From Candidatus Saccharimonadales bacterium (GTDB taxonomy: Bacteria > Patescibacteriota > Saccharimonadia > Saccharimonadales > JBBQAJ01): 64,000 bases of DNA. The DNA is taken from positions 1,037 through 65,036 of the forward strand of contig JBBRAK010000001.1 in NCBI GenBank assembly GCA_038206875.1. The letters run 5' to 3'. The position numbers and the translations under genes are program-made. The notes beneath the pieces were generated by a model. The model made no database searches. It worked only from the letters and a program-made list of their open reading frames with translations, and was not told the DNA's origin. Shown piece after piece: positions 4,015 through 47,505 of the stretch. Position 1 is the first letter of the stretch. Each line of letters starts with the position of its first letter.

Positions 4015-4090
4015 TTATGAAATTATACTCTAGCGGGTATGTAGAATCTGCTATAATTTGTTAAATAATCGTAAGAGATGAGACAAAAAA

Positions 4091-4540
4091 ATGGTAGACA
4101 GGATTAATTTTGATATTTACGGAGAGGTCCTAACAAGGGCGTCAGCTCTAAGCTATGAGGCAGAGCGTGCTGGAATAGACCCTGATTCGGTTGCTATAAG
4201 GAACTCCATACTATCTGAAGTATCTGGGCGTTATGGCCCGAACAGTATGGTGGAAGCCGAATTAATAGTCGCCGCTCGTACCGCCGGTCGACTGGCAGTA
4301 CTGGCAGACAAAGCAGAGGCAGAGGGTTTTGGCAGTGCAGTAGCTCGGCTAGAACTGTGGTTAGGTGTGCAAATGGGCGACCCACTTGCTATGCCAGCTA
4401 TGGTGCCAGGCGGAATTGTTGACACAATTAGGGGGGTTGTTGGTATTGAGCCAATGCCCATATCATTGTTTGAACCGAGCGGGAAAGACATCCCTGAAAT
4501 CGCAGACTTGCCGGTGGCTGGCGAGCTCAGATTGGCATAA
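4091..4540 (+). CDS. Hypothetical protein (Ala/Gly/Arg/Pro-rich orphan)
   Basis: This is a 149-aa ORF with no recognisable motif. Its composition (A, G, R, E, P rich, no His) differs from its K/N/I-rich neighbours. Only weaker antisense ORFs overlap it. Confidence 0.5.
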   Translation: MVDRINFDIYGEVLTRASALSYEAERAGIDPDSVAIRNSILSEVSGRYGPNSMVEAELIVAARTAGRLAVLADKAEAEGFGSAVARLELWLGVQMGDPLAMPAMVPGGIVDTIRGVVGIEPMPISLFEPSGKDIPEIADLPVAGELRLA

Positions 4541-7669: not shown

Positions 7670-8710
7670 ATGAGCAAAAGAAAAGCTAGTATAAAAAGAA
7701 CGAGGGAGTTAATGCAAAACAAGCGCAACGTATTTATATTCGTGGGAGTGTTTGCTTTAATCGGTGTTGCAACACTGCTTATAAGTAAAGTAGCTACACC
7801 AGCCTATAGTGTAGAGGCCGAAGATGGAACAAGAACGGGCTCAGCCAGCATAATTCCAGCATCAGGAACTGATTCAACGTTAAGTGGTGGTAGGGCAATT
7901 GCATTTGGAAGCGCCGTAACACCACCACCATCCACAGGCCAACCACCCACTGCAGTTACTGGCGGAGCGACATGGAATACACTGTGGGCCGATGAGTTTA
8001 ACGGCTCCAGTATAGATACAAGTAAATGGAATGTTCTGAATAATAGTAACTACGGAACTGGAAACAACGAAGAAGAATGTTATATGACTGGTAATACTGT
8101 TGTCTCTGGAGGATCGTTAAGACTCATCGGAAAACAAGACTCAAATAACGGTTGTTCTGGTTACAAATATACTTCCGGATTTATAACTACCAGCAAACTT
8201 GGCGGTTCGCAAAAGTTTAAGTTCAAACAAGGTTATACCGAAATCAGGGCTAGGCTACCCAAGGGTGGTGGTTGGTGGCCAGCATTTTGGCTGGTAGGTG
8301 CCGACACCGCACCAGGTTGGCCTGCATATGGAGAGATAGATGTTATGGAAGCATACGGTACATACCCATGCTGTATTGAAGAAACCTTCCACTGGGATAA
8401 CGGTGGGCACAAACAAGAAGGAGGTGCGTCTAGAGATGTAGGTAGTACAGATAATACCGATTGGCATACCTACGGAGTCAATTGGACTGCTAGCAAGCTT
8501 GATTTTTACATCGACGGCGTAAAGAAGCAAACTTTCACTCCTTCCGATTCTGGTGCGACAGCTGCGCTGGGATATGAGCATACAATTGATATAAACCTAG
8601 CTATAGGCGGTGATGGACCAAGAAAATATCATGGCTGGAATGGAACCTGGGCTAGCGGTGATCTTCCTGGAACATATGAAGTTGATTATGTAAGAGTATG
8701 GCAACCATGA
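7670..8710 (+). CDS. Secreted glycoside hydrolase family 16 (beta-glucanase/laminarinase type)
   Basis: It has the shared leader (TM segment, then ATPAYSVEAEDGTRTGSASIIPASGTDSTLSGGRAIAFGS). It also has WADEFNGSSIDTSKWN, the GH16 catalytic motif GEIDVMEAYG (ExDxxE) and a DYVRVWQ end. Confidence 0.85.
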   Translation: MSKRKASIKRTRELMQNKRNVFIFVGVFALIGVATLLISKVATPAYSVEAEDGTRTGSASIIPASGTDSTLSGGRAIAFGSAVTPPPSTGQPPTAVTGGATWNTLWADEFNGSSIDTSKWNVLNNSNYGTGNNEEECYMTGNTVVSGGSLRLIGKQDSNNGCSGYKYTSGFITTSKLGGSQKFKFKQGYTEIRARLPKGGGWWPAFWLVGADTAPGWPAYGEIDVMEAYGTYPCCIEETFHWDNGGHKQEGGASRDVGSTDNTDWHTYGVNWTASKLDFYIDGVKKQTFTPSDSGATAALGYEHTIDINLAIGGDGPRKYHGWNGTWASGDLPGTYEVDYVRVWQP

Positions 8711-27974: not shown

Positions 27975-30743
27975 ATGGGACAAACAACAATCCTGGGGCA
28001 CAGGCGATTCTTTACTAAAGCCAAAAGCAAAGCATATGATGAATTAAAGTGGGTCAAACGAGATTCAGTTATTATGAATCCGACAACCGGAAAACCAGTA
28101 TTTGAACAAAAAGATTTGGAGTTTCCGGATGGCTGGTCGCTGAATTCAATCAATATTGTCGCCCAAAAATATTTCACGGGTACGCTTGGTACAGCCGAGC
28201 GGGAAGACTCGCTTAAAAAATTAATTGATCGTGTAGTCGATACAATCGCTAGGCAGGGCTTACAGGAGTCGTATTTTGAATCTGAGGCAGAAGTCGAAGA
28301 TTTTAGAGAAGAACTAAAATATATTTTGGCAACGCAACGTGCAGCTTTTAATTCCCCGGTGTGGTTCAATATCGGAGCTCCAGCAAGAGCACAACAGGCA
28401 AGTGCTTGTTTTATCTTGGCCGTTGAAGACACGATGCCGTCAATATTAAATTGGTATAAAGAAGAAGGAATGATTTTTAAGGGAGGCTCTGGCTCAGGGA
28501 TAAACCTGAGTGGCATTAGGTCATCCGTAGAACCGTTAGGTAAAAGCGCTGGAACGGCTTCCGGGCCACTGAGTTTTATGCGTGGTGCGGATGCATCGGC
28601 TGGAGCAATCAAAAGCGGTGGAAAAACACGTCGAGCTGCCAAAATGGTTATATTGAACTCAGATCATCCAGATATAGAAGAGTTTATTTGGTGTAAGGCT
28701 CGCGAAGAGCGCAAAGCTCGTGATTTACAAGCCGCCGGCTGGGACATGACACTTGATGGCAAAGATATTACGTCTGTTCAATACCAAAACGCTAATAATT
28801 CAATCCGGGTCACTGACGAATTTATGCAAGCCGTCGAAAATGACGAAGATTACGAACTACGAGCTGTGGCAACTGGCAAATCCGTAAAACGTGTAAAAGC
28901 TCGTGATTTATTTCGACAAATAGCAGAAGCGGCATGGGAGTGTGCCGATCCAGGGATGCAATTCGACACCACTATAAACAAGTGGCACACAACTCCTAAT
29001 GCAGGACGAATAAATGGCAGTAACCCTTGCAGTGAGTACATGCACCTAGACAACTCTGCCTGTAACCTTGCGTCAATCAACCTGCTTAGGTATTTAAATC
29101 AAGACGGTAGTTTTGATGTCGAAGCATTTCGCCACACCGTAGAGCTAATTTTTACCGCTCAGGAGATTTTAGTCGGTTATAGTGAGTATCCTACAGAAAA
29201 CATTACTAAAAATGCTCGCGCTTATCGACAGCTGGGTATTGGTTATGCAAACTTGGGTGCCATGTTAATGGCTCAAGGACTTCCCTACGATAGCGACGAA
29301 GGTAGGGCTCAAGCGGCTGCAATTACAGCGATAATGACTGGACATGCTTATGCAACAAGCGCGAGATTGGCGAATAGGGTTGGTCCGTTTGCGGGATTTC
29401 ACAAAGACAGAGAGGCGATGCTAAATGTTCTCAAAATGCACAGAGCAGAGGTATCCAAAATTGATGCCAGTTTAGTTGCAGAAGATCTATTGAGTGCTGC
29501 TACGACAGCCTGGGACGACGCAGTTGAGCTGGGTGATTTGTACGGTGTTAGAAATGCTCAGGCTAGCGTACTTGCTCCGACGGGAACAATTGGGCTTATG
29601 ATGGATTGTGATACAACTGGGATTGAACCTGATCTCGGTCTAGTCAAGTTTAAAAAACTTGTCGGTGGTGGCACTATGAATATTGTAAATCAGACAGTAC
29701 CTCGTGCACTAAAAGTACTCGGATATACTAAAGCCCAAGTAGACGATATTGTTAACTATATTGATGTTGAAAAAACAATAACTGACGCTCCTCAACTCAA
29801 GAGTGAGCACTTTGATGTGTTTTCTTGCTCGATGGGGGACAACCCAATTCATTACATGGGCCACGTCAAGATGATGTCAGCGGTACAACCCTTTATTTCG
29901 GGTGCTATTAGTAAAACTGTAAATATGCCAGAAGAGGTAAAAGTTGAGGAAATAGAACAACTGCACATTGAAGCTTGGAAGCTAGGCCTAAAAGCAGTGG
30001 CAATATATCGTGATAACTGTAAAGTTGCGCAACCACTATCAATGACTAAAAAGGGTGCAGACAAAAACAACGACATGCCTTCATCTGGCGCAGAAACAAT
30101 AACAGAAAAAGTGATAGTGAAAACCGTTGTACGTCGTGAAATGTCCAAGGTTCGACCTTCAAAAACATACTCCTTTACTGTTTCAGATTGTCATGGATAT
30201 TTCACTGTTGGTGAGTACGAAGATGGAACCCCGGGAGAATTATTTGTCCGAGTGGCCAAAATGGGTTCGACACTTGCAGGACTTATGGACTCCTTCGCTA
30301 GATCAATAAGTTACAGTTTGCAATATGGAGTTCCACTGAAAGTATATGTTAAGGGAATGACAAGTATGTCGTTTGCGCCTGCTGGAATAACGGATGATCC
30401 GGAAATTCGAACAGCATCATCTCTGATAGACTACATATTTCGTAGGTTGGCGATGGATTACTTATCTTTTGATGATCGACTGGAACTAGGATTGGCTTCA
30501 ATAGACGATATGCCAGACTCACAGACAAGTATGCTGGATATGGAAATCTTGCCAGAGACAACAAAACTCACAGAACAAAAGGTTGCCAAACAAGAAGTTA
30601 TTTCGGATGAAAAGATAGAAAAAACTAAGGCTACACACAAAGATCAATCGGCACCAATGTGCTTCAACTGTGGAAATCAAACTCAAAAAGCTGGCAGTTG
30701 CTACGTGTGTTCATCTTGCGGTTCGACAACTGGCTGTTCGTAA
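27975..30743 (+). CDS. nrdJ: Class II (adenosylcobalamin-dependent) ribonucleotide reductase NrdJ
   Basis: It has an N-terminal FTKAKSKAYDELKWVKRD...FEQKDLEFPDGWS..NIVAQKYF segment. The active-site region reads SNPCSEY, with LAPTGTIG downstream. The C-terminal Cys cluster is CFNCGNQTQKAGSCYVCSSCGSTTGCS. The ORF opens at 27945, but GGGGG at 27961-27965 favours the ATG at 27975. Confidence 0.92.
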   Translation: MGQTTILGHRRFFTKAKSKAYDELKWVKRDSVIMNPTTGKPVFEQKDLEFPDGWSLNSINIVAQKYFTGTLGTAEREDSLKKLIDRVVDTIARQGLQESYFESEAEVEDFREELKYILATQRAAFNSPVWFNIGAPARAQQASACFILAVEDTMPSILNWYKEEGMIFKGGSGSGINLSGIRSSVEPLGKSAGTASGPLSFMRGADASAGAIKSGGKTRRAAKMVILNSDHPDIEEFIWCKAREERKARDLQAAGWDMTLDGKDITSVQYQNANNSIRVTDEFMQAVENDEDYELRAVATGKSVKRVKARDLFRQIAEAAWECADPGMQFDTTINKWHTTPNAGRINGSNPCSEYMHLDNSACNLASINLLRYLNQDGSFDVEAFRHTVELIFTAQEILVGYSEYPTENITKNARAYRQLGIGYANLGAMLMAQGLPYDSDEGRAQAAAITAIMTGHAYATSARLANRVGPFAGFHKDREAMLNVLKMHRAEVSKIDASLVAEDLLSAATTAWDDAVELGDLYGVRNAQASVLAPTGTIGLMMDCDTTGIEPDLGLVKFKKLVGGGTMNIVNQTVPRALKVLGYTKAQVDDIVNYIDVEKTITDAPQLKSEHFDVFSCSMGDNPIHYMGHVKMMSAVQPFISGAISKTVNMPEEVKVEEIEQLHIEAWKLGLKAVAIYRDNCKVAQPLSMTKKGADKNNDMPSSGAETITEKVIVKTVVRREMSKVRPSKTYSFTVSDCHGYFTVGEYEDGTPGELFVRVAKMGSTLAGLMDSFARSISYSLQYGVPLKVYVKGMTSMSFAPAGITDDPEIRTASSLIDYIFRRLAMDYLSFDDRLELGLASIDDMPDSQTSMLDMEILPETTKLTEQKVAKQEVISDEKIEKTKATHKDQSAPMCFNCGNQTQKAGSCYVCSSCGSTTGCS

Positions 30744-30790
30744 ATCACCGATTTGTAAACCATAATCGTTTTCCTGTAAACTACTACGCA

Positions 30791-31051
30791 GTGAAGGCAA
30801 TAATTCTATATCATCCACAATCCGAGTTTGCTAGAAGCGTTGAAGAGTATGCGCACGACTTCGACCAACAAAAGGGAGTTGAAATTGATTTGATTAGTCT
30901 AGAAACCAAAGAAGGCGCGTATCGCGCTACCTTGTACGGTATTGTTAAATATCCGGCACTATTGGTATTACGCGACAACAACGACTTAATAAACAGCTGG
31001 GAGGGCGTGCCGTTGCCATTAATGAACGAAGTCGCCGGGTATCTAGGATAG
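30791..31051 (+). CDS. Small hypothetical protein, possibly thioredoxin-fold-like without CxxC
   Basis: The 86-aa product starts at GTG 30791: VKAIILYHPQSEFARSVEEY...YPALLVLRDNNDLINSWEG. The ATG at 30659 listed in the track would overlap nrdJ by 85 nt. Confidence 0.45.
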   Translation: MKAIILYHPQSEFARSVEEYAHDFDQQKGVEIDLISLETKEGAYRATLYGIVKYPALLVLRDNNDLINSWEGVPLPLMNEVAGYLG

Positions 31052-31080
31052 TTGCGCATAACAGATAGGTGAGTTACAAT
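31052..31080 (+). promoter_or_regulatory. Promoter TTGCGC-17-TACAAT for the ileS leader
   Basis: TTGCGC lies at 31052-31057, followed by a 17-nt spacer and TACAAT at 31075-31080. Confidence 0.45.
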
Positions 31081-31086
31081 TTAGGT

Positions 31087-31290
31087 AATCCGTAAAACAG
31101 CTATCAACTGTATGTCTCTGTAGGATTTTTCCGGACGGAGAGCGGAAAGGGAAGAACGTTTTGAGTAAGTCCTTCGACAGGCTCAGGATAAATAGAACCC
31201 TTCGGTGTGACCCGTAAGATCACAAAATTAAGTCCCAAATAGGATGGTACCGCCCCAATATAATGGAGCTCCTATGTGTAGGGATTTTTT
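31087..31290 (+). promoter_or_regulatory. T-box riboswitch leader (Ile) with terminator
   Basis: The T-box core AAAUAGGAUGGUACCGCC at 31237-31254 matches the consensus AANNNGGGUGGNACCGCG with 2 mismatches. UGGU fits a tRNA discriminator A. An imperfect hairpin CCCAAUAUAAUGGAG/CUCCUAUGUGUAGGG overlaps the T-box 3' end and is followed by AUUUUUU (to 31290). The element lies upstream of an aaRS gene. A candidate Ile specifier AUC-A is at 31103-31106. Confidence 0.7.
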
Positions 31291-31301
31291 AATTTCTCAA
31301 A

Positions 31302-31360
31302 CTCACAAAAACCACCCCTGCAAAAGGTCGGACCTTTTACAGAGAGGGAGAATGTGATTT
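31302..31360 (+). repeat. 59-bp palindromic repeat element, copy A (ileS leader)
   Basis: The sequence is ctcacaaaaaccacccctgcaaaaggtcggaccttttacagagagggagaatgtgattt. It has TCACA...TGTGA termini and a central perfect palindrome AAAAGGTC-G-GACCTTTT. Its reverse complement matches 47088-47146 at 55 of 59 positions. Confidence 0.85.
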
Positions 31361-31382
31361 GAGCAAGCTAAGGAGTTGAGGT

Positions 31383-34268
31383 GTGAAGTTTAAGCAAGGA
31401 ACTCGGCGAAAACCGATTGAATACGAAAAAGACCTCGTAGTTCAGTGGAAAAAAAATAAGACTTTTGAAAAATCTGTCGAAATGCGCCCCAAAGACAATG
31501 CTTACGTCTTCTATGATGGTCCTCCATTTATAACTGGGGTACCACATCATGGAACGTTGCTGTCTAGTATTGTTAAAGACGCAGTTCCTCGTTATCAGAC
31601 TATGAAGGGTAATCGCGTTGAGCGTGTTTGGGGATGGGATACCCATGGTCTTCCTGCAGAGAATTTTGTCGAACAAAAACTTGGTATTATTGATAGACAC
31701 GATATTGGTACAAAAATTAGTCTGGCGCAATACATCACTACAGCTCGGGAGAGCATGATACAGACGGGTGATTTGTGGGAAGATACTATTGATCGAATTG
31801 GTCGTTGGGTTGATTTCAAGGGCTCGTACAAGACGATGGACAAAGATTATATGGAGTCTGTTTGGTGGGCATTCAAACAGCTTTATGAGAAGGGCAAAAT
31901 TTACGAGGGTGAGCGAGTGCTCATGTATGACACAAAGTGGGCAACACCCTTGTCAAAAGCCGAAGTTACTATGGATGCAGGTGCATATCAAACGGTTACA
32001 GATCCTTCTGTGTATGTAAAATTTAGGTTACACGACTATAATGCGTATCTGTTAGCGTGGACTACAACACCTTGGACCCTACCTGCAAATACAGCGGTAG
32101 CAATAAACCCAAAAATTGAATATGTTCAGGTTGAGTATAATAACGAGCAGTTTATATTAGCAAAAGAGCTTGTCGCAAAAGTCTTTGTAGACGACAAGCA
32201 TAGCGCGCTGAGCTATAAGATTGTAAAACAGATTGACGGGGGTAACTTAATAGGTAAATCTTATGAACCTTTGTTCGAAAATCGAGGAAAGAGCGCTCAT
32301 AGGGTTTGGGAGGCAGATTACGTGACAACTGACTCAGGTACAGGTGTGGTTCACCTTGCTCCTGCATATGGCGAAGAAGACTTCTTGCTGGCACAAGAGA
32401 AGGGCATTCCAGTTGTCCATGTGCTAGACGAGTACGGAACCTACACTGAGGGTGACTGGAAAGGTGAAAATGTCTGGGAGATAAACAAAACAATCGCAAA
32501 AATACTTCTAGAGCGTGGGGTTGTCTGGAAAATTGTTTATATTCAGCACGAATATCCTCATAACCTGCGTAATGGCAATCGCTTGATGTATCGTGCTCAC
32601 CCCAGCTGGTTTATGGATATTGATGGACAAAGAACCCAGATGTTGGAGCAAAATAAAAACATCAACTGGTTTCCAGAATATATTAAGCACGGTCGGTTTG
32701 AGAACACCGTCAAATCTGCACCTGACTGGAATCTATCTCGTGACCGATTCTGGGCGACTGCAATGCCTGTCTGGAAGGGTACGGATAAAAAAGGCAACGA
32801 GCACATAAAAGTGGTCGGTAGTTATGCCGAGCTAAAAGAGCTCTCCGGAACGGAGCTAGAAGACTACCACCGACCCTGGATTGACGATGTAACTTTTACA
32901 ATAGATTCCGTCAAGTATAAGAGGATAGATAAAGTCTTAGACTGTTGGTTTGAGTCCGGAAGCATGCCGTTCGCGCAATTTCATTATCCATTCGAAAACA
33001 AAGCAAAATTTGATGCTAATTTTCCAGGAGACTTTATTGTCGAATATGTAGGACAAGTACGGGCCTGGTTCTACTACCTACATGCCATCAATGTTGGTTT
33101 ATTTGGTCGTAATGCTTTTGAAAATGTTATAACAACAGGGACGCTGGCGGGCAACGATGGGCGTAAAATGAGCAAATCTTTTGGAAATTATACTGATCCG
33201 AATGAGCTAATGGATAGATATTCTGCAGATAGCCTGAGGCTGTTGCTACTCAGTTCCCCGGTGCTCAACGGGGAAGATTTTGCTTTGCAGGACAAAGACG
33301 TCAGCGATGTGGCTCGCAAGCTGAGTATGGTTTGGAATATGTATGATTTTTTTACCCTATATGCGGATGTTGACGGCTGGGAGTGGAGTGGAGATATTTC
33401 TGATCCAACGGATGAGCTTACTAGTTCACTCGACCACTGGATTGTCTCAAGGGTGCACCAGCTTTCGTCTCATGTCGACAGGCATATGCAGGCTTATGAC
33501 ATCCCAAATGCGTTAGCTGAGGTATTGCCATTTATTGATGACGCCAGCAATTGGTACGTACGGAGAAGCCGTAAGCGTTTCTGGAAAAGTTCCAACGATC
33601 AGGATAAAAACGATGCTTACCGTACTTTGCACTACATTCTAGTCCAGCTAAGCATCATAATGGCGCCTTTTACACCATTCTTAGCTGAAGAGCTTTACCA
33701 AAAACTTACCGGTGGCGAGTCAGTGCACCTACTTGACTGGCCAGAGGTCGGACACACTAATGAGTTGGTAATAGAGCACATGGCGCATGTTAGGTGGATA
33801 GTGAATGAGGGTCTTTCCTTGCGAGCTAGTAACGGAATAAAGGTTAGGCAACCCCTGTTGGCTGTTAAAATTGAAAGTTCTTTTGAGCTGAGCAAAGAAC
33901 TAACGGACATGGTCGCAGAAGAGTTAAATGTGAAAGAAGTAAAACTAATACTCAGGAGTGACGGCCATAAGACCATCCAGCTAAATACAAAAATAACTCC
34001 TGAACTGAAAAGAGAAGGTTTGATGAGAGAAGTTATACGTCATGTTCAAAATGCCCGTAAAGAGGCTGGTTTACAGGTTGATGACCACATAAAATTGGTT
34101 CTTCAAACTAATAGTGAAGATATAAAACAAGCTGTCAGTGAGCACCAAAATACAATCAAGCAAGAAACACTGGCAAATCATCTTAATTCAGAAGGAAGTG
34201 GTTCGTTTGAGACAATGGTTCGCGTTGATAATGTGGATTTGCATGTAAAAATTCAGAAAGACGACTAA
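31383..34268 (+). CDS. ileS: Isoleucyl-tRNA synthetase (type 2-like)
   Basis: It starts at GTG, 7 nt after AGGAG (31371-31375). It has PPFITGVPHHGT (the HIGH region) and KMSKSFGN (KMSKS). The editing CP1 domain is present, and the product is 961 aa. Confidence 0.96.
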   Translation: MKFKQGTRRKPIEYEKDLVVQWKKNKTFEKSVEMRPKDNAYVFYDGPPFITGVPHHGTLLSSIVKDAVPRYQTMKGNRVERVWGWDTHGLPAENFVEQKLGIIDRHDIGTKISLAQYITTARESMIQTGDLWEDTIDRIGRWVDFKGSYKTMDKDYMESVWWAFKQLYEKGKIYEGERVLMYDTKWATPLSKAEVTMDAGAYQTVTDPSVYVKFRLHDYNAYLLAWTTTPWTLPANTAVAINPKIEYVQVEYNNEQFILAKELVAKVFVDDKHSALSYKIVKQIDGGNLIGKSYEPLFENRGKSAHRVWEADYVTTDSGTGVVHLAPAYGEEDFLLAQEKGIPVVHVLDEYGTYTEGDWKGENVWEINKTIAKILLERGVVWKIVYIQHEYPHNLRNGNRLMYRAHPSWFMDIDGQRTQMLEQNKNINWFPEYIKHGRFENTVKSAPDWNLSRDRFWATAMPVWKGTDKKGNEHIKVVGSYAELKELSGTELEDYHRPWIDDVTFTIDSVKYKRIDKVLDCWFESGSMPFAQFHYPFENKAKFDANFPGDFIVEYVGQVRAWFYYLHAINVGLFGRNAFENVITTGTLAGNDGRKMSKSFGNYTDPNELMDRYSADSLRLLLLSSPVLNGEDFALQDKDVSDVARKLSMVWNMYDFFTLYADVDGWEWSGDISDPTDELTSSLDHWIVSRVHQLSSHVDRHMQAYDIPNALAEVLPFIDDASNWYVRRSRKRFWKSSNDQDKNDAYRTLHYILVQLSIIMAPFTPFLAEELYQKLTGGESVHLLDWPEVGHTNELVIEHMAHVRWIVNEGLSLRASNGIKVRQPLLAVKIESSFELSKELTDMVAEELNVKEVKLILRSDGHKTIQLNTKITPELKREGLMREVIRHVQNARKEAGLQVDDHIKLVLQTNSEDIKQAVSEHQNTIKQETLANHLNSEGSGSFETMVRVDNVDLHVKIQKDD

Positions 34269-34314: not shown

Positions 34315-34623
34315 ATGAAAAAAGCAGTTATTACCACCGGCTCTAAACAGTATTTGGTCTCACAGGGAGACACAGTGCTGGTTGAACTTTTGAATTCCAA
34401 AGATAAATCTGTCAACTTTGTCCCCCTACTTGTTATTGATGGTGAAAAAACTACCGTAGGAACCCCTGAGGTTAGCGGGTCAAAAGTAACCGCAGAGGTG
34501 ATTTCGGAAGATGTTCAAGCTGACAAAGTTACCTCTATTCGCTACAAAGCCAAAAAGCGAGTTCACGTTGTTCGAGGCCATCGTCAACGTCACACACACC
34601 TGAAAATCACAAAAATCGCCTAA
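34315..34623 (+). CDS. rplU: 50S ribosomal protein L21
   Basis: The sequence MKKAVITTGSKQYLVSQGDTVLVE...KVTSIRYKAKKRVHVVRGHRQRHTHLKI follows the L21 pattern. The track start at TTG 34306 is less likely. No rpmA follows. Confidence 0.9.
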   Translation: MKKAVITTGSKQYLVSQGDTVLVELLNSKDKSVNFVPLLVIDGEKTTVGTPEVSGSKVTAEVISEDVQADKVTSIRYKAKKRVHVVRGHRQRHTHLKITKIA

Positions 34624-45705: not shown

Positions 45706-46454
45706 AAAAATTAATAGCCGGTAAAATTAAGCCCACAAAAGGCTATGCTCATGTTTTGCACATAGTTCTTAGTGCAATAATGCCAGCCCTTGTATATGTA
45801 CTTATAAGAATAGATTTTGTGCAGTTGGCAGTTTTGGTGATACTAATTACAAAATGGCGTATGTTTGCCGTAAGGCCACGGTTTTGGCCGGCAATATTCC
45901 GCGCAAATTCTGTAGATATAATAGTTGGACTGGCCACGATTGTACTTATGTCTCACACAGACAGTGCTTCACTTCAACTTTTCTGGGCAGTCCTATATAT
46001 GTTGTGGCAAACTGTTCTAAAGCCAGGGCGAAGCGTAATAAGTATCGCCTCTCAAGCATTGGTCGGACAGACTTATGGTTTGATGGCGATATTTTTAGGA
46101 TGGCCAGCTGCCCCGTTGGGTCTTCTAGTTTTTGCTGTTTGGGGCGTATGTTACCTTTCGGCAAGGCATTTTATAAGTAGTTTCGAAGAACCCTACACTT
46201 CATTGTACGCACATACATGGGGATATTTTGCGGCGGCAATAACATGGTTGTGTGTGCATTGGTTGCTTTTTTATAGCGTTATTGCACAGCCGACGCTTCT
46301 GATTACTGTTTTGGGGTTTGGATTGGGTGGTCTTTATTATTTGAGAGAAACAGATCGATTGTCAGTTTTACTTAGGCGACAAATTGTTTTTATTATGATA
46401 GCGATAATTGTCGTTGTGTTTGTTTTCTCAGACTGGGGTGATAAAGCCATATAG
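45702..46454 (+). CDS. Hypothetical polytopic membrane protein
   Basis: This is a 250-aa product with about 7 hydrophobic segments. Its start overlaps the LCP stop by 4 nt, which suggests an operon. I recognise no family motif. Confidence 0.6.
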   Translation: MKKLIAGKIKPTKGYAHVLHIVLSAIMPALVYVLIRIDFVQLAVLVILITKWRMFAVRPRFWPAIFRANSVDIIVGLATIVLMSHTDSASLQLFWAVLYMLWQTVLKPGRSVISIASQALVGQTYGLMAIFLGWPAAPLGLLVFAVWGVCYLSARHFISSFEEPYTSLYAHTWGYFAAAITWLCVHWLLFYSVIAQPTLLITVLGFGLGGLYYLRETDRLSVLLRRQIVFIMIAIIVVVFVFSDWGDKAI

Positions 46455-46572
46455 CTTTTGTTTGCCGGAATGTGTTACGTGCAATTAGTGATTATAGATT
46501 TTTCAAAGAACCGGTTTATAGCGCATGACCACAATCGCAATAACTGCCAGAAGAATTGCATCTGTAATTCCT

Positions 46573-47505
46573 CTACGGTAAAATCGATCTAAAAGCCAAT
46601 ATGAAATCCTCTGAATCTGCTAATTCGTATCCGGCTGAATCTGCAATTTGTTTTAATATTTGGTGTTGAGCTGGCATTGACTCGGTAAAGACATACTGTG
46701 GTTTTGGATGATTTTTCGAAAGAATATTCGAGCTGTTCGCTTTATATATTTGGTCAAAAAGCTTTCTATATAAGTCTAGACCATCTTCACCGCCAAAAAT
46801 TGCGAGCTTAGGTTCTCGCTCAGCGTCTTGATTGATTGTATAGTTACTCGGAACATAGGGAAGATTTGCTAGGATAGCCGACTGGGGGGCAAGACCTACG
46901 GATAGGATGGGTTCTAACAAGTCTCCGCGAAGGTAAGTAATATGCGTGTTATGAAGTTCCGAGTTTTGTTTAGCAATCTTAAGGCATTCAGTGGAGATAT
47001 CAGTAGCGAAAACAGTTAACTCAGGATGCTCTAGTTTTACATCAATTCCTATCACTCCAGAACCCGTACCAACATCTATAACATTCAAAATCACATTTTC
47101 CCTCTCTGTAAAAGGTCGGACCTTTTGCAGGGGTGATTTTTGTGAATTGTAGATTTTTGTGAACAGGTCTAGCATGGTTTCGGTTTCGGGGCGGGGTATT
47201 AGGGTATGTTTGTTTACTAAGAAATTACGACCATAAAATTCTGAGAAACCGCGAATATATGCTAGAGGTTCGTGCTTTAACCGCCGGTTGATTTGCTTAT
47301 TGAGTACGGTTAAATTAGTTTGAGATATGTCTTCATCTGGGTGAGCTAGCACATAGGATTTATCTTTTTTTAGAATATCAGAGAGGAGTACAAGCGCATC
47401 AAGTCTGCTTGTCATAACGCCTGATTTATTCAAACGATTGCCTGCGGACGATAGCCAGTTATTAATTGTTGTCGAGCTGGCGTTCGTAATCATGTAGTTT
47501 TTCAA
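46573..47505 (-). CDS. prmC: Release-factor glutamine N5-methyltransferase PrmC, carrying an in-frame repeat-derived insertion
   Basis: It has IPRPETE, the SAM motif [12 protein letters not shown] and the catalytic NLPYVP (an NPPY variant). The segment between PRPETE and DVGTG is about 16 aa longer than in E. coli PrmC, from memory. That extra segment coincides with repeat copy B. Confidence 0.85.
47088..47146 (-). repeat. 59-bp palindromic repeat element, copy B (inside the prmC coding sequence, in frame)
   Basis: The sequence is aaatcacattttccctctctgtaaaaggtcggaccttttgcaggggtgatttttgtgaa. It is identical at 55 of 59 positions to the reverse complement of 31302-31360. It is translated as ...[21 protein letters not shown]... 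within PrmC. Confidence 0.85.

What the first reader, a model, noticed from the sequence alone, without database searches (positions are those of the whole stretch)
31302..31360. 59-bp palindromic repeat present in the ileS leader and, in frame, inside prmC (RPE-like behaviour)
- **Two copies.** 31302-31360 and the reverse complement of 47088-47146 are identical at 55 of 59 positions. Similarity decays immediately outside this span.
- **Structure.** The unit has TCACA...TGTGA termini. Its arms fold around a perfect AAAAGGTC-N-GACCTTTT centre.
- **Copy A.** It sits between the T-box terminator and the ileS Shine-Dalgarno.
- **Copy B.** It lies inside the prmC ORF and is translated as [21 protein letters not shown]. 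This is exactly the linker between PRPETE and the SAM-binding DVGTGSG motif, where this PrmC is about 16-19 residues longer than E. coli PrmC.
- **Orientation.** Both copies are in the same sense relative to local transcription.
- **Precedent.** In-frame insertion of a palindromic selfish element into a housekeeping gene is the hallmark of Rickettsia palindromic elements. I am not aware of this being described in this lineage.
Basis: seen in the sequence. Interest (0 to 1): 0.7.

Follow-up and report, generated by a model that had tools for sequence, protein, structure and literature searches.

The report
Transposase-linked palindromic repeat inside prmC
Two copies of a 55-base hairpin-forming repeat sit in a Saccharibacteria genome, one in the ileS leader and one read in frame as a floppy surface loop of the essential enzyme PrmC. 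In related genomes the same repeat flanks a tyrosine-transposase gene, so it is a REP/RPE-like selfish element in a new lineage rather than a new kind of thing.

Summary
**Observation: confirmed.** The two stated spans match at 55 of 59 positions, and the flanks are unrelated. The real unit is a 55-nt hairpin, TCACA...TGTGA, at 31303-31357(+) and 47091-47145(-). Two covariance models find no third copy in the 64 kb.

**Host.** The genome is a Saccharimonadia (CPR) bacterium.

**The prmC copy is not lineage-specific.**
- PrmC orthologues of about 50-60% identity carry the same 55-nt hairpin at the same codon.
- The termini are conserved and the inner stem shows compensatory changes.
- Other orthologues hold truncated, decayed or no copies.

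**Link to a transposase.**
- A blind pattern scan of metagenomes returned three loci.
- All three lie 2-54 nt from a 204-aa Y1 (HUH) transposase gene, and none lies in prmC.
- That gene has a copy of the element on each side.
- One member of its protein cluster is annotated as a Saccharibacteria transposase.

**Best reading.** These are solo copies of a REP/RPE-like palindromic element served by a RAYT-like transposase. The prmC copy is an old in-frame insertion in a low-confidence surface loop.

**Caveats.** No transposase gene lies in the window. The genome-wide copy number is unknown. Mobilisation is inferred. In-frame REPs are already published for other phyla, so this is a new member of a known kind.

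The parts
31303..31357 (+). Copy A: a 55-nt palindromic element (TCACA...TGTGA) in the ileS 5' leader, in the same sense as ileS. Flanking CTCAAAC/TTTGAG extends the outer stem to about 31297-31363.
   Evidence: CM R2 scores it at 79.3 bits. It is flagged terminator-like on the minus strand.
47091..47145 (-). Copy B: the same 55-nt element inside prmC, read in frame. With flanking bases it encodes [21 protein letters not shown].
   Evidence: CM R2 scores it at 78.2 bits. It is flagged terminator-like on the plus strand. Orthologous copies are shown.
46573..47415 (-). prmC (release-factor glutamine methyltransferase), the host gene of copy B. The 280-aa form starting MTSRLD is 100% identical to database protein P0001. 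The mechanical ORF runs up to 47505.
31383..34268 (+). ileS (isoleucyl-tRNA synthetase), the gene downstream of copy A.
31094..31276 (+). T-box-like leader upstream of copy A. It is a weak match that includes the AAAUAGGAUGGUACCGC motif.
   Evidence: One search gives 19.9 bits against a gathering score of 93. It is not found at the gathering threshold.
34605..34620 (+). Possible remnant of the element's left arm (AATCACAAAAATCGCC). No hairpin follows it, and it could be chance.
   Evidence: (I5).

Best explanation
**What it is.** Both sites are solo copies of a short non-autonomous palindromic element of Saccharibacteria. It is a 55-nt, three-segment hairpin:
- an outer stem TCACA/TGTGA;
- an A-rich internal loop;
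- a middle stem, roughly CCACCCCTG with CAGRGRGGG;
- a variable inner stem-loop.

In kind it is a REP/RPE-like repeat.

**Partner enzyme.** In related genomes the partner is a 204-aa RAYT-like Y1 (HUH) tyrosine transposase. Its gene has a copy of the element on each side.

**Inferred mechanism.**
- The hairpin forms on single-stranded DNA.
- The Y1 enzyme recognises it by shape and by its conserved feet, then cuts and rejoins it.
- This spreads copies or converts one copy to another.

**The prmC copy (shown).**
- It is an old insertion of about 57 nt that preserves the reading frame.
- It lies in the loop between the first helix of the methyltransferase domain and strand beta-1.
- It has been inherited vertically across a large part of the Saccharimonadia.
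- In different lineages it is kept intact with compensatory stem changes, truncated, or decayed.

**The ileS-leader copy.**
- It belongs to the same subfamily as the prmC copy.
- It shares the T-to-C variant (CTG CAA AAG) that avoids a TAA stop in the prmC frame.
- It also shares the AGAGAGGGA right arm.
- It therefore arose by transposition or conversion from a prmC-type copy.

**Orientation.** Every copy whose flanking genes give an unambiguous reading runs co-directionally with local transcription. This keeps the terminator-shaped strand (hairpin plus UUUUUG) off the mRNA. I read that as purifying selection on orientation.
For: **The repeat is real.**

**The family exists elsewhere.**
- MAG CALFBO01 has at least 5 intergenic copies of the same core, CCACCCCTGTAAAAGGTC-S-GACCTTTTACAGGGGTGG.

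**Link to a Y1 transposase.**
- I ran a structure-agnostic scan of metagenomes: TCACAAAAA N6 CTG N19 CAG N8 AATGTGA, 22 specified bases. My own estimate is well under one chance hit. The tool gives no expected count for collection scans.
- It returned 3 loci. None is in prmC.
- All three lie 2-54 nt from a 204-aa ORF. L012 and L013 are the same locus from two samples.
- That ORF matches Pfam Y1_Tnp above its gathering score, at 31-46 bits against 23.
- Its best NCBIfam hit is REP_Tyr_transpos.
- It has an HUH motif (NHFHLL) and a Y motif (RYIHLNP) about 58 residues apart.
- One member of its cluster is named "transposase [Candidatus Saccharibacteria bacterium]".
- The gene has the element on both sides in L014, and a full copy plus a truncated copy in L012 and L013.
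- A 44-48% identical Y1 gene lies 8 kb from prmC in L002. It is flanked by a shorter related hairpin, TTACAAGGTTGAACCTTGTAA.

**The hairpin is maintained in prmC.**
- L002, L010 and L011 carry a 55-nt unit at the same codon.
- Six stem pairs have changes on both sides. No shuffle out of 500 reached the observed covariation score.
- L001 is decayed. L016 is truncated to the left arm plus the inner hairpin. L015 has no hairpin.

**The insert is a surface loop.**

**Published precedent.** In-frame REPs in linkers and loops are reported in PMC6006769 and PMC3733652.
Against: **Gaps in the window's own genome.**
- The window contains no Y1 gene (tblastn).
- The rest of the genome could not be reached.
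- So a cognate transposase and the genome-wide copy number are unknown.

**Low copy number.**
- There are 2 copies in 64 kb.
- About 197 kb of related loci hold no copies beyond those found by the sequence scans. This is far below classical REP abundance.

**Departures from canonical REPs.**
- There is no GT[AG]G foot.
- The copies flanking the Y1 gene are in direct orientation, not inverted.
- The NCBIfam RAYT score is below its cut-off, at 32-46 bits against 80.

**Other limits.**
- Only one gene is seen hit in frame. The six-frame peptide search had almost no power.
- Compensatory changes in a DNA palindrome can arise from template-switch correction or from conversion by other copies. They need not reflect selection.
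- No transposition event, such as an empty site against a filled site in close strains, was observed.
Confidence: 0.65

Rival explanations
1. The hairpin is a functional, exapted element. It acts as a one-way intrinsic terminator or insulator on the strand antisense to prmC and ileS. It stops transcription from the convergent downstream genes (LytR, a membrane protein, and in relatives a protease) from running antisense into prmC-prfA. It sits in the only permissive loop of PrmC. Selection for this role would explain why it has lasted. This does not exclude a selfish origin.
For: - The antisense strand folds much better, at -33.3 and -23.2 kcal/mol against -23.4 and -17.4 for the sense strand.
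- More cells pair on the antisense strand, 88.6% against 83.0%, through G-U pairs.
- Both copies are called terminator-like on the antisense strand: a 14-bp stem followed by TGGTTTTTGT or TGATTTTTGT.
- Downstream of the convergent 250-aa gene, the element is the first terminator-like site on the plus strand.
- In L001 and L011 prmC overlaps a convergent protease gene. In L015 the two genes abut with no spacer.
- Compensatory changes keep the stem at about 50% protein identity.
Against: - Copy A has no convergent gene to terminate.
- The prmC copy lies about 650 nt beyond the stop of the convergent ORF.
- The hairpin is decayed in L001, truncated in L016 and absent in L015, although L001 and L015 have the same convergent gene arrangement. 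L016 is too short to tell.
- The same element flanks a transposase gene.
- No transcript data exist.
Confidence: 0.15
2. No mobile element is involved. The segment is simply the ancestral PrmC linker of this clade, and a short piece of prmC was copied once into the ileS leader by illegitimate recombination.
For: - The segment is shared by many orthologues at the same codon.
- Copy A carries the C variant that is needed only in the prmC reading frame.
- The window holds only two copies.
Against: - Similarity stops exactly at the palindrome's ends, with flanks matching at 14 of 40.
- The same 55-nt architecture occurs outside prmC. It flanks Y1 transposase genes in Saccharibacteria contigs and lies in intergenic DNA of another MAG.
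- PrmC orthologues and solved HemK structures lack the segment.
Confidence: 0.07
3. It is a sense-strand cis-regulatory RNA hairpin shared by the ileS and prfA-prmC mRNAs. It might be a protein-binding or RNase-processing site that couples the expression of translation genes.
For: - Both copies are in the sense orientation within transcribed regions of translation-related genes.
- The sense RNA folds better than shuffled sequence, with z-scores of -4.1 and -3.0.
Against: - The sense strand is the weaker folder, with conserved C-A mismatches.
- Close relatives have no ileS leader at all.
- Other copies sit next to unrelated genes and a transposase gene.
- No Rfam family matches the element itself; the only hit in the 30700-31500 E-value search was the weak T-box.
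Confidence: 0.05

Closest known systems
REP elements with their RAYT (TnpA-REP) transposases, known as REPtrons. Sources: Nunvar 2010 (PMC2817692), Di Nocera 2013 (PMC3733652), Quentin 2018 (PMC6006769).
   Same: - It is a short imperfect palindrome dispersed in the genome.
- The same palindrome flanks a single Y1 HUH transposase gene.
- That gene has a class-2-like Y motif (YIHLNP). The resemblance to E. coli RayT's YIYINP is from my own memory.
- G-T/G-U pairing favours one strand.
- Intragenic, frame-preserving copies in protein loops are documented for REPs.
   Different: - It has no 5' GT[AG]G or CGTC tag. Its feet are TCACA/TGTGA.
- It is 55 nt long with three helical segments, against the 20-40 nt given for REPs in PMC3733652.
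- The flanking copies are direct, not inverted.
- Copy number appears low.
- The transposase scores below the NCBIfam RAYT cut-off and is 204 aa long with a C-terminal extension.
- The host is a CPR bacterium.
   Same: - It is a palindromic repeat found both in non-coding DNA and in frame inside a housekeeping gene.
- The encoded peptide sits in a surface loop and leaves the fold intact.
   Different: - RPE-1 is about 100-150 bp, from my own knowledge. This unit is 55 nt.
- RPEs decorate many different genes. Here only prmC is seen.
- Here a candidate transposase partner is identified.
- No sequence relationship to RPEs was tested.
IS200/IS605 insertion sequences and their transposase-less derivatives (PATEs).
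   Same: - It has a Y1 HUH transposase.
- Sub-terminal hairpins in direct orientation lie on both sides of the gene (L012, L014).
- There are no long terminal inverted repeats.
- Solo hairpin units could be end-only derivatives.
   Different: - The Y motif is not the class-1 Y----Q form.
- The protein is 204 aa, against the 140-143 aa of the solved ISDra2 transposase chains it weakly matched.
- The PDB profile match to ISDra2 TnpA is only E = 0.35.
- No multi-copy full-length IS was seen.
Atypical hairpins flanking subclass 2.6 and class 3 TnpA-Y1 genes (Quentin 2018, PMC6006769).
   Same: Non-GTAG secondary structures flank a Y1 gene, and copies occur elsewhere in the genome. That paper describes them as intermediate between an IS and a REPtron.
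   Different: - Those subclasses are reported mostly from Bacteroidetes (subclass 2.6) and from Planctomycetes, Acidobacteria and Proteobacteria (class 3).
- Class 3 has a CnGA foot and a Y----Q motif. Neither is seen here.
- I did not determine which subclass these proteins belong to.

Membership tests
REP / RAYT (REPtron) | Short imperfect palindrome that folds into a stem-loop | tested here: met
   - Folds.
- Across 8 copies, 83-89% of cells pair and 6 pairs have compensatory changes.
REP / RAYT (REPtron) | Conserved 5' GT[AG]G (or CGTC) tetranucleotide at the foot of the hairpin | tested here: not met
   All full copies begin TCACA and end TGTGA. The feature itself is as defined in PMC6006769.
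REP / RAYT (REPtron) | A RAYT-type Y1 transposase gene flanked by the same palindromes | tested here: met
   - Met in related Saccharibacteria loci L012/L013 and L014.
- Met in a variant form in L002.
- The Pfam Y1_Tnp score is above its gathering score. The NCBIfam REP_Tyr_transpos score is below its cut-off.
- Not testable for the window's own genome, because the window holds no Y1 gene.
REP / RAYT (REPtron) | Flanking REPs in inverted orientation (REPIN-like) | tested here: not met
   In L014 the flanking copies align at 38 of 50 in direct register and 12 of 50 in inverted register. In L012 the two copies share the same left arm on the same strand.
REP / RAYT (REPtron) | High copy number dispersed through the genome (classically more than 100) | tested here: inconclusive
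   - There are 2 copies in 64 kb.
- MAG CALFBO01 has at least 5 copies in 16 kb, but that sample is biased by how it was found.
- The whole genome was not available.
Rickettsia-type RPE behaviour | Palindromic repeat inserted in frame in a functional gene and encoding a surface loop | tested here: met
   - Copy B is in prmC.
- The loop has pLDDT of 64-66 and is coil.
- T. maritima HemK aligns with a 15-residue gap there.
Rickettsia-type RPE behaviour | Many different protein genes hit in frame | tested here: inconclusive
   The six-frame peptide search returned only the query's own PrmC, at 29 bits. Even the known orthologue P0003 was missed, so the test had almost no power.
IS200/IS605 and derivatives | Class-1 Y1 transposase (Y----Q motif, about 130-150 aa) with left-end and right-end hairpins in direct orientation | tested here: inconclusive
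   - Direct hairpins: met.
- Y motif: RYIHLNP, with no Q, so not met.
- Length: 204 aa.
- The PDB profile match to ISDra2 TnpA is only E = 0.35.
T-box leader (RF00230), for the ileS leader that holds copy A | Match at Rfam's gathering score | tested here: not met
   It scores 19.9 bits against 93 and gives no hit at the gathering threshold. The T-box sequence motif is present.
Intrinsic (Rho-independent) terminator | G+C-containing stem followed by a U-run | tested here: met
   It is met only on the strand antisense to ileS and prmC. This is a consensus match, and function is untested.

The most novel reading that the evidence does not exclude
The hairpin inside prmC is not just a tolerated relic. 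It has been actively maintained for a family- or order-level span of Saccharimonadia evolution because it does something. One option is an antisense-strand terminator or insulator that shields prfA-prmC from convergent transcription in these gene-dense genomes. Another is a resident binding or conversion site for the Y1 enzyme. The evidence for maintenance is the compensatory stem changes and the nucleotide-level conservation of TCACAAAAA...AATGTGA across synonymous sites. This would make it a domesticated REP embedded in the coding sequence of an essential gene.
Probability: 0.15. Interest if true: 0.7.

Novelty: new member of a known kind. Interest (0 to 1): 0.45.

Why it matters
**What it would add.**
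- It gives Saccharibacteria (CPR/Patescibacteria) a REP/RAYT-like repeat system. My literature searches found none described for this group.
- These are tiny, streamlined, largely uncultured genomes that are thought to carry few repeats.
- The system has an unusual 55-nt hairpin with TCACA/TGTGA feet.

**Why the prmC copy is useful.**
- It shows how a selfish hairpin can become a long-lived piece of an essential protein.
- The prmC linker offers a natural series of intact, compensated, truncated, decayed and absent copies.
- That series could be used to separate selection on structure from palindrome self-correction.

**Practical point.** The element explains the odd extra loop in these PrmC proteins. 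It also marks a site that tolerates insertions.

**Limit.** It does not change any general principle. Intragenic REPs and RPEs are already known.

Tried and rejected
1. **Reaching the source genome.** Exact-protein look-ups of the window's PrmC, as the mechanical ORF and as P0001, found no contig on record. The genome-contig collection does not hold this genome or L002's genome. A genome-wide copy count was therefore impossible.

2. **First metagenome scan.** The window-type core CTGYAAAAGGTCNGACCTTTTRCAG gave 0 hits.

3. **Viral contigs.** Scans with the core and with the architecture pattern gave 0 hits. A scan for Y1 relatives gave one distant locus, L017, which I did not pursue.

4. **ileS leaders of relatives.** I checked whether the leader copy is conserved. 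In the three closest IleS relatives, at 76-77% identity, ileS overlaps an upstream acetyltransferase gene. There is no leader and no element.

5. **Six-frame peptide search.** This was meant to find other genes hit in frame. Only the query's own PrmC came back, at E = 0.27. The test was underpowered, so it is not evidence of absence.

6. **Replication-strand bias.**
   - I tested the bias expected for single-strand transposition.
   - GC skew is positive across the whole window.
   - So A and B lie on opposite strands relative to replication and agree only relative to transcription.
   - With two copies this is not informative.

7. **A universal prmC hairpin.** I rejected this because L015 has none and L001 is decayed.

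8. **Other readings.** I considered parS, an operator site and a DNA-uptake sequence.
   - I rejected the parS and operator readings because the inner stem sequence differs between lineages while the pairing is kept.
   - I rejected the DNA-uptake reading because the density is only 2 copies per 64 kb.

9. **PrmC tree.** An NJ tree of 117 PrmC sequences is too star-like to decide between one insertion with many losses and repeated insertions.

Full report
**1. Observation**

The 40 nt on each side match at only 14 of 40. The shared 34-mer never occurs twice in 100 shuffles of the window.

The centre AAAAGGTC-N-GACCTTTT and the TCACA/TGTGA ends are as described. Copy A (31303-31357, +) lies in the ileS leader. 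It is 8 nt upstream of AAGGAG and 25 nt upstream of the GTG start at 31383. Copy B (47091-47145, -) lies inside prmC and reads ...[21 protein letters not shown]... between RPETE and DVGTGSG.

Two covariance models find only these two copies in the 64 kb. One was built from window-type copies and one from eight diverse copies. The next best scores are 13 bits.

Three details needed correcting.
- **The unit.** It is exactly 55 nt in every full family member.
- **The better-folding strand.** The strand antisense to the genes is the better folder. It gives -33.3 and -23.2 kcal/mol, against -23.4 and -17.4 for the sense strand. It has G-U pairs where the sense strand has C-A mismatches. It ends in UUUUUG, so a consensus scan calls it terminator-like on that strand.
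- **The T-box.** The match is weak, at 19.9 bits against a gathering score of 93. The putative terminator is a 5-bp stem.

**2. Organism and the prmC insertion**

PrmC and IleS homologues place the window in the Saccharimonadia, also called Saccharibacteria or CPR.

The segment is missing from solved HemK structures. Thermotoga HemK aligns with a 15-residue gap. An AlphaFold model has a mean pLDDT of 89.8. It shows the insert as coil of low confidence (pLDDT 64-66, below 50 at residues 98-100) between helix 76-91 and strand 111-115.

It is not specific to this lineage, however. Among 117 orthologues the RPETE-to-DxGTG linker ranges from 16 to 106 residues.
- A regex classification found 14 with a full related peptide (xSQKxxL...P.T...NVxW), 20 with only the inner motif (K[VD][RGS]P[LF]) and 3 with only the right half.
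- By eye, about 20 carry the full peptide.
- Most have none.

On a poorly resolved tree these states are patchy.

**3. DNA of the orthologues**

| Locus | PrmC identity to window | State of the element |
|---|---|---|
| L002 | about 60% | Near-identical; 46 of 47 in the core, while the gene overall is 56% identical at DNA level |
| L010 | about 51% | 55-nt unit at the same codon, same termini, different inner stem: CTG-ATAAAGG...CCTTTAT-CAG |
| L011 | about 51% | 55-nt unit at the same codon, same termini, different inner stem: CTG-TTACAG...CTGTAA-CAG |
| L001 | about 57% | Decayed |
| L016 | about 51% | Left arm plus inner hairpin only |
| L015 | about 50% | No hairpin; a 14-nt tandem repeat instead |

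The shared termini in L010 and L011 are TCACAAAAA, CTG/CAG and AATGTGA. The window's inner stem is CTG-CAAAAGGTC...GACCTTTTA-CAG.

Across eight full copies, six stem pairs carry changes on both sides. No shuffle out of 500 reached the observed covariation score. The prmC hairpin is therefore old, structurally maintained in some lineages and lost in others.

**4. What the element is**

The window-type core occurs in intergenic DNA of another Saccharimonadia MAG, CALFBO01. Its copies lie at L003 about 345-395, about 1105-1155 and as a tandem pair at 7886-7945, and at L005 about 4090-4135. There it is a nearly perfect palindrome, CCACCCCTGTAAAAGGTC-S-GACCTTTTACAGGGGTGG.

The decisive result came from a scan of metagenome contigs. 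The pattern specified only the conserved skeleton: TCACAAAAA N6 CTG N19 CAG N8 AATGTGA. It returned three loci, and L012 and L013 are the same locus from two samples. None is in prmC. All lie beside a 204-aa ORF:
- 54 nt upstream of it in L012 and L013;
- 2 nt after its stop in L014, with a second copy 12 nt upstream of its start.

That ORF is a Y1 HUH transposase.
- It matches Pfam Y1_Tnp at 31-46 bits, above the gathering score of 23.
- Its best NCBIfam hit is REP_Tyr_transpos at 32-46 bits, below the cut-off of 80.
- It has the motifs NHFHLL and RYIHLNP.
- NCBI names one member of its cluster "transposase [Candidatus Saccharibacteria bacterium]".

L002 carries a 44-48% identical gene 8 kb from prmC. 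That gene is flanked on both sides by a shorter related hairpin. In L012 the downstream copy is truncated just after the inner hairpin, which is the same truncation as in L016's prmC.

The flanking copies are in direct orientation. The intergenic copies translate to the same peptide flavour (KSQKPSLLRVEPLTDE*NVI) as the PrmC inserts.

**5. Interpretation**

The best-supported reading is a REP/RPE-like non-autonomous palindromic element served by a RAYT-like Y1 transposase.

*Shown:*
- the family exists;
- it is physically associated with Y1 genes;
- the prmC copy is an in-frame insertion in a surface loop;
- that insertion is ancient and patchily retained.

*Inferred:*
- the Y1 enzyme mobilises the element on single-stranded DNA;
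- copy A derives from a prmC-type copy.

The case for copy A's origin rests on three points.
- Copy A shares the CTG-CAA-AAG variant. In the prmC frame this variant avoids the TAA stop that the canonical CTGTAAAAGG would create.
- It also shares the AGAGAGGGA right arm.
- It differs from B and from L002's copy by only 3 positions each, and at four of those positions it keeps the state seen in L010.

Orientation was read at eight sites: copy A, copy B, L005, L003_b, L003_c, L012 upstream, L012 downstream and L014 downstream. At all eight the TCACAAAAA-to-AATGTGA sense runs co-directionally with local transcription. L003_a lies between convergent genes and is uninformative. This fits counter-selection against placing the terminator-shaped strand in an mRNA.

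**6. Rivals**

- **An exapted antisense terminator or insulator.** This is attractive. prmC overlaps or directly abuts a convergent protease gene in relatives. The element is the first plus-strand terminator-like site after the convergent operon in the window. However, copy A has nothing to terminate, the site is about 650 nt into prmC, and lineages with the same gene arrangement have lost the hairpin.
- **An ancestral linker plus a copied prmC fragment.** This is contradicted by the non-prmC copies and by the sharp palindrome boundaries.
- **A sense-strand regulatory RNA.** This fits poorly with the C-A mismatches and with the absence of an ileS leader in relatives.

**7. Comparison with known systems**

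Intragenic, frame-preserving REPs in loops and linkers are already reported. Some Rickettsia RPEs are classed with GTAG REPs (PMC3733652; PMC6006769).

This element fails several canonical REP criteria.
- It has no GT[AG]G foot.
- It is 55 nt long with three helices.
- Its flanking copies are direct.
- Its copy number appears low.

It most resembles the "atypical secondary structures" around some TnpA-Y1 subclasses. My searches found no description of such repeats in Saccharibacteria. I therefore class it as a new member of a known kind.

**8. Limits**

- The window holds no Y1 gene.
- Copy number is unknown.
- The search for other in-frame hosts had no power.
- Only eight full copies support the covariation analysis.
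- Palindrome self-correction or conversion could mimic selection.

Noticed in passing
window 31094-31382, compared with L007, L008, L009 and L015: This genome has an ileS leader of about 330 nt with a weak T-box-like match that includes the AAAUAGGAUGGUACCGC motif. In the closest IleS relatives (76-77% identity), ileS overlaps an upstream acetyltransferase gene by 4 nt (11 nt in L008, where the overlapped gene is an uncharacterised ORF after the acetyltransferase), and there is no leader. Leader-based regulation of ileS therefore seems to be gained or lost within this clade.
   Followed up: partly
PrmC linker between RPETE and DxGTG: window about 47080-47180(-), and proteins P0001-P0120: The linker is hypervariable across Saccharimonadia, at 16-106 residues. 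It holds other recurrent peptide families unrelated to this element, such as ...ATTRDWRQETEDNSL... and ...SRQSPVASEAQCKEQETSDKRRK.... Some orthologues (P0083, P0090, P0097, P0101, P0116) have inserts of 77-106 residues. This one loop looks like a general hotspot for insertions.
   Followed up: partly
L015 10001-10828 (prmC of P0034): At the place where the hairpin sits in other orthologues, this prmC has a perfect 14-nt tandem direct repeat, GTCGACAGTAAACA x2, which encodes VDSKQSTVNSQ.
   Followed up: no
L003 7886-7945 (MAG CALFBO01): Two hairpin cores lie in tandem, 28 nt apart (CTAAAGGTCAGACCTTTTACAGGATCTT repeated), followed by the usual GGGGTAAATTTTGCAAAAT tail. This is a local duplication of the element.
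   Followed up: no
window 46454-46573, compared with L001 10902-12095, L011 10891-12120 and L015 10829-12094: In relatives, prmC overlaps or directly abuts a convergent trypsin-like/PDZ protease gene at its 3' end. In the window that protease gene is missing. prmC is followed by a 119-nt spacer and then the convergent 250-aa membrane-protein gene.
   Followed up: no
window 34605-34620 (+): AATCACAAAAATCGCC is an exact match to the element's left-arm consensus. It lies at the 3' end of a 105-aa ORF downstream of ileS, and no hairpin follows it. It could be a remnant or chance, since 0.45 matches are expected at up to 2 mismatches.
   Followed up: partly
L002 9745-9987 and 10811-11966: L002 has several small unannotated ORFs of 64-189 aa, with no Pfam hit, inserted around prmC. 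They are absent from the window and from L001. The same contig holds the Y1 transposase gene, which suggests local rearrangement.
   Followed up: no
window 1-64000: GC skew is positive in every 4-kb window and the cumulative skew rises steadily. The whole window therefore lies on one replichore, although it includes parA/parB-like genes at about 41.7-43.3 kb.
   Followed up: no
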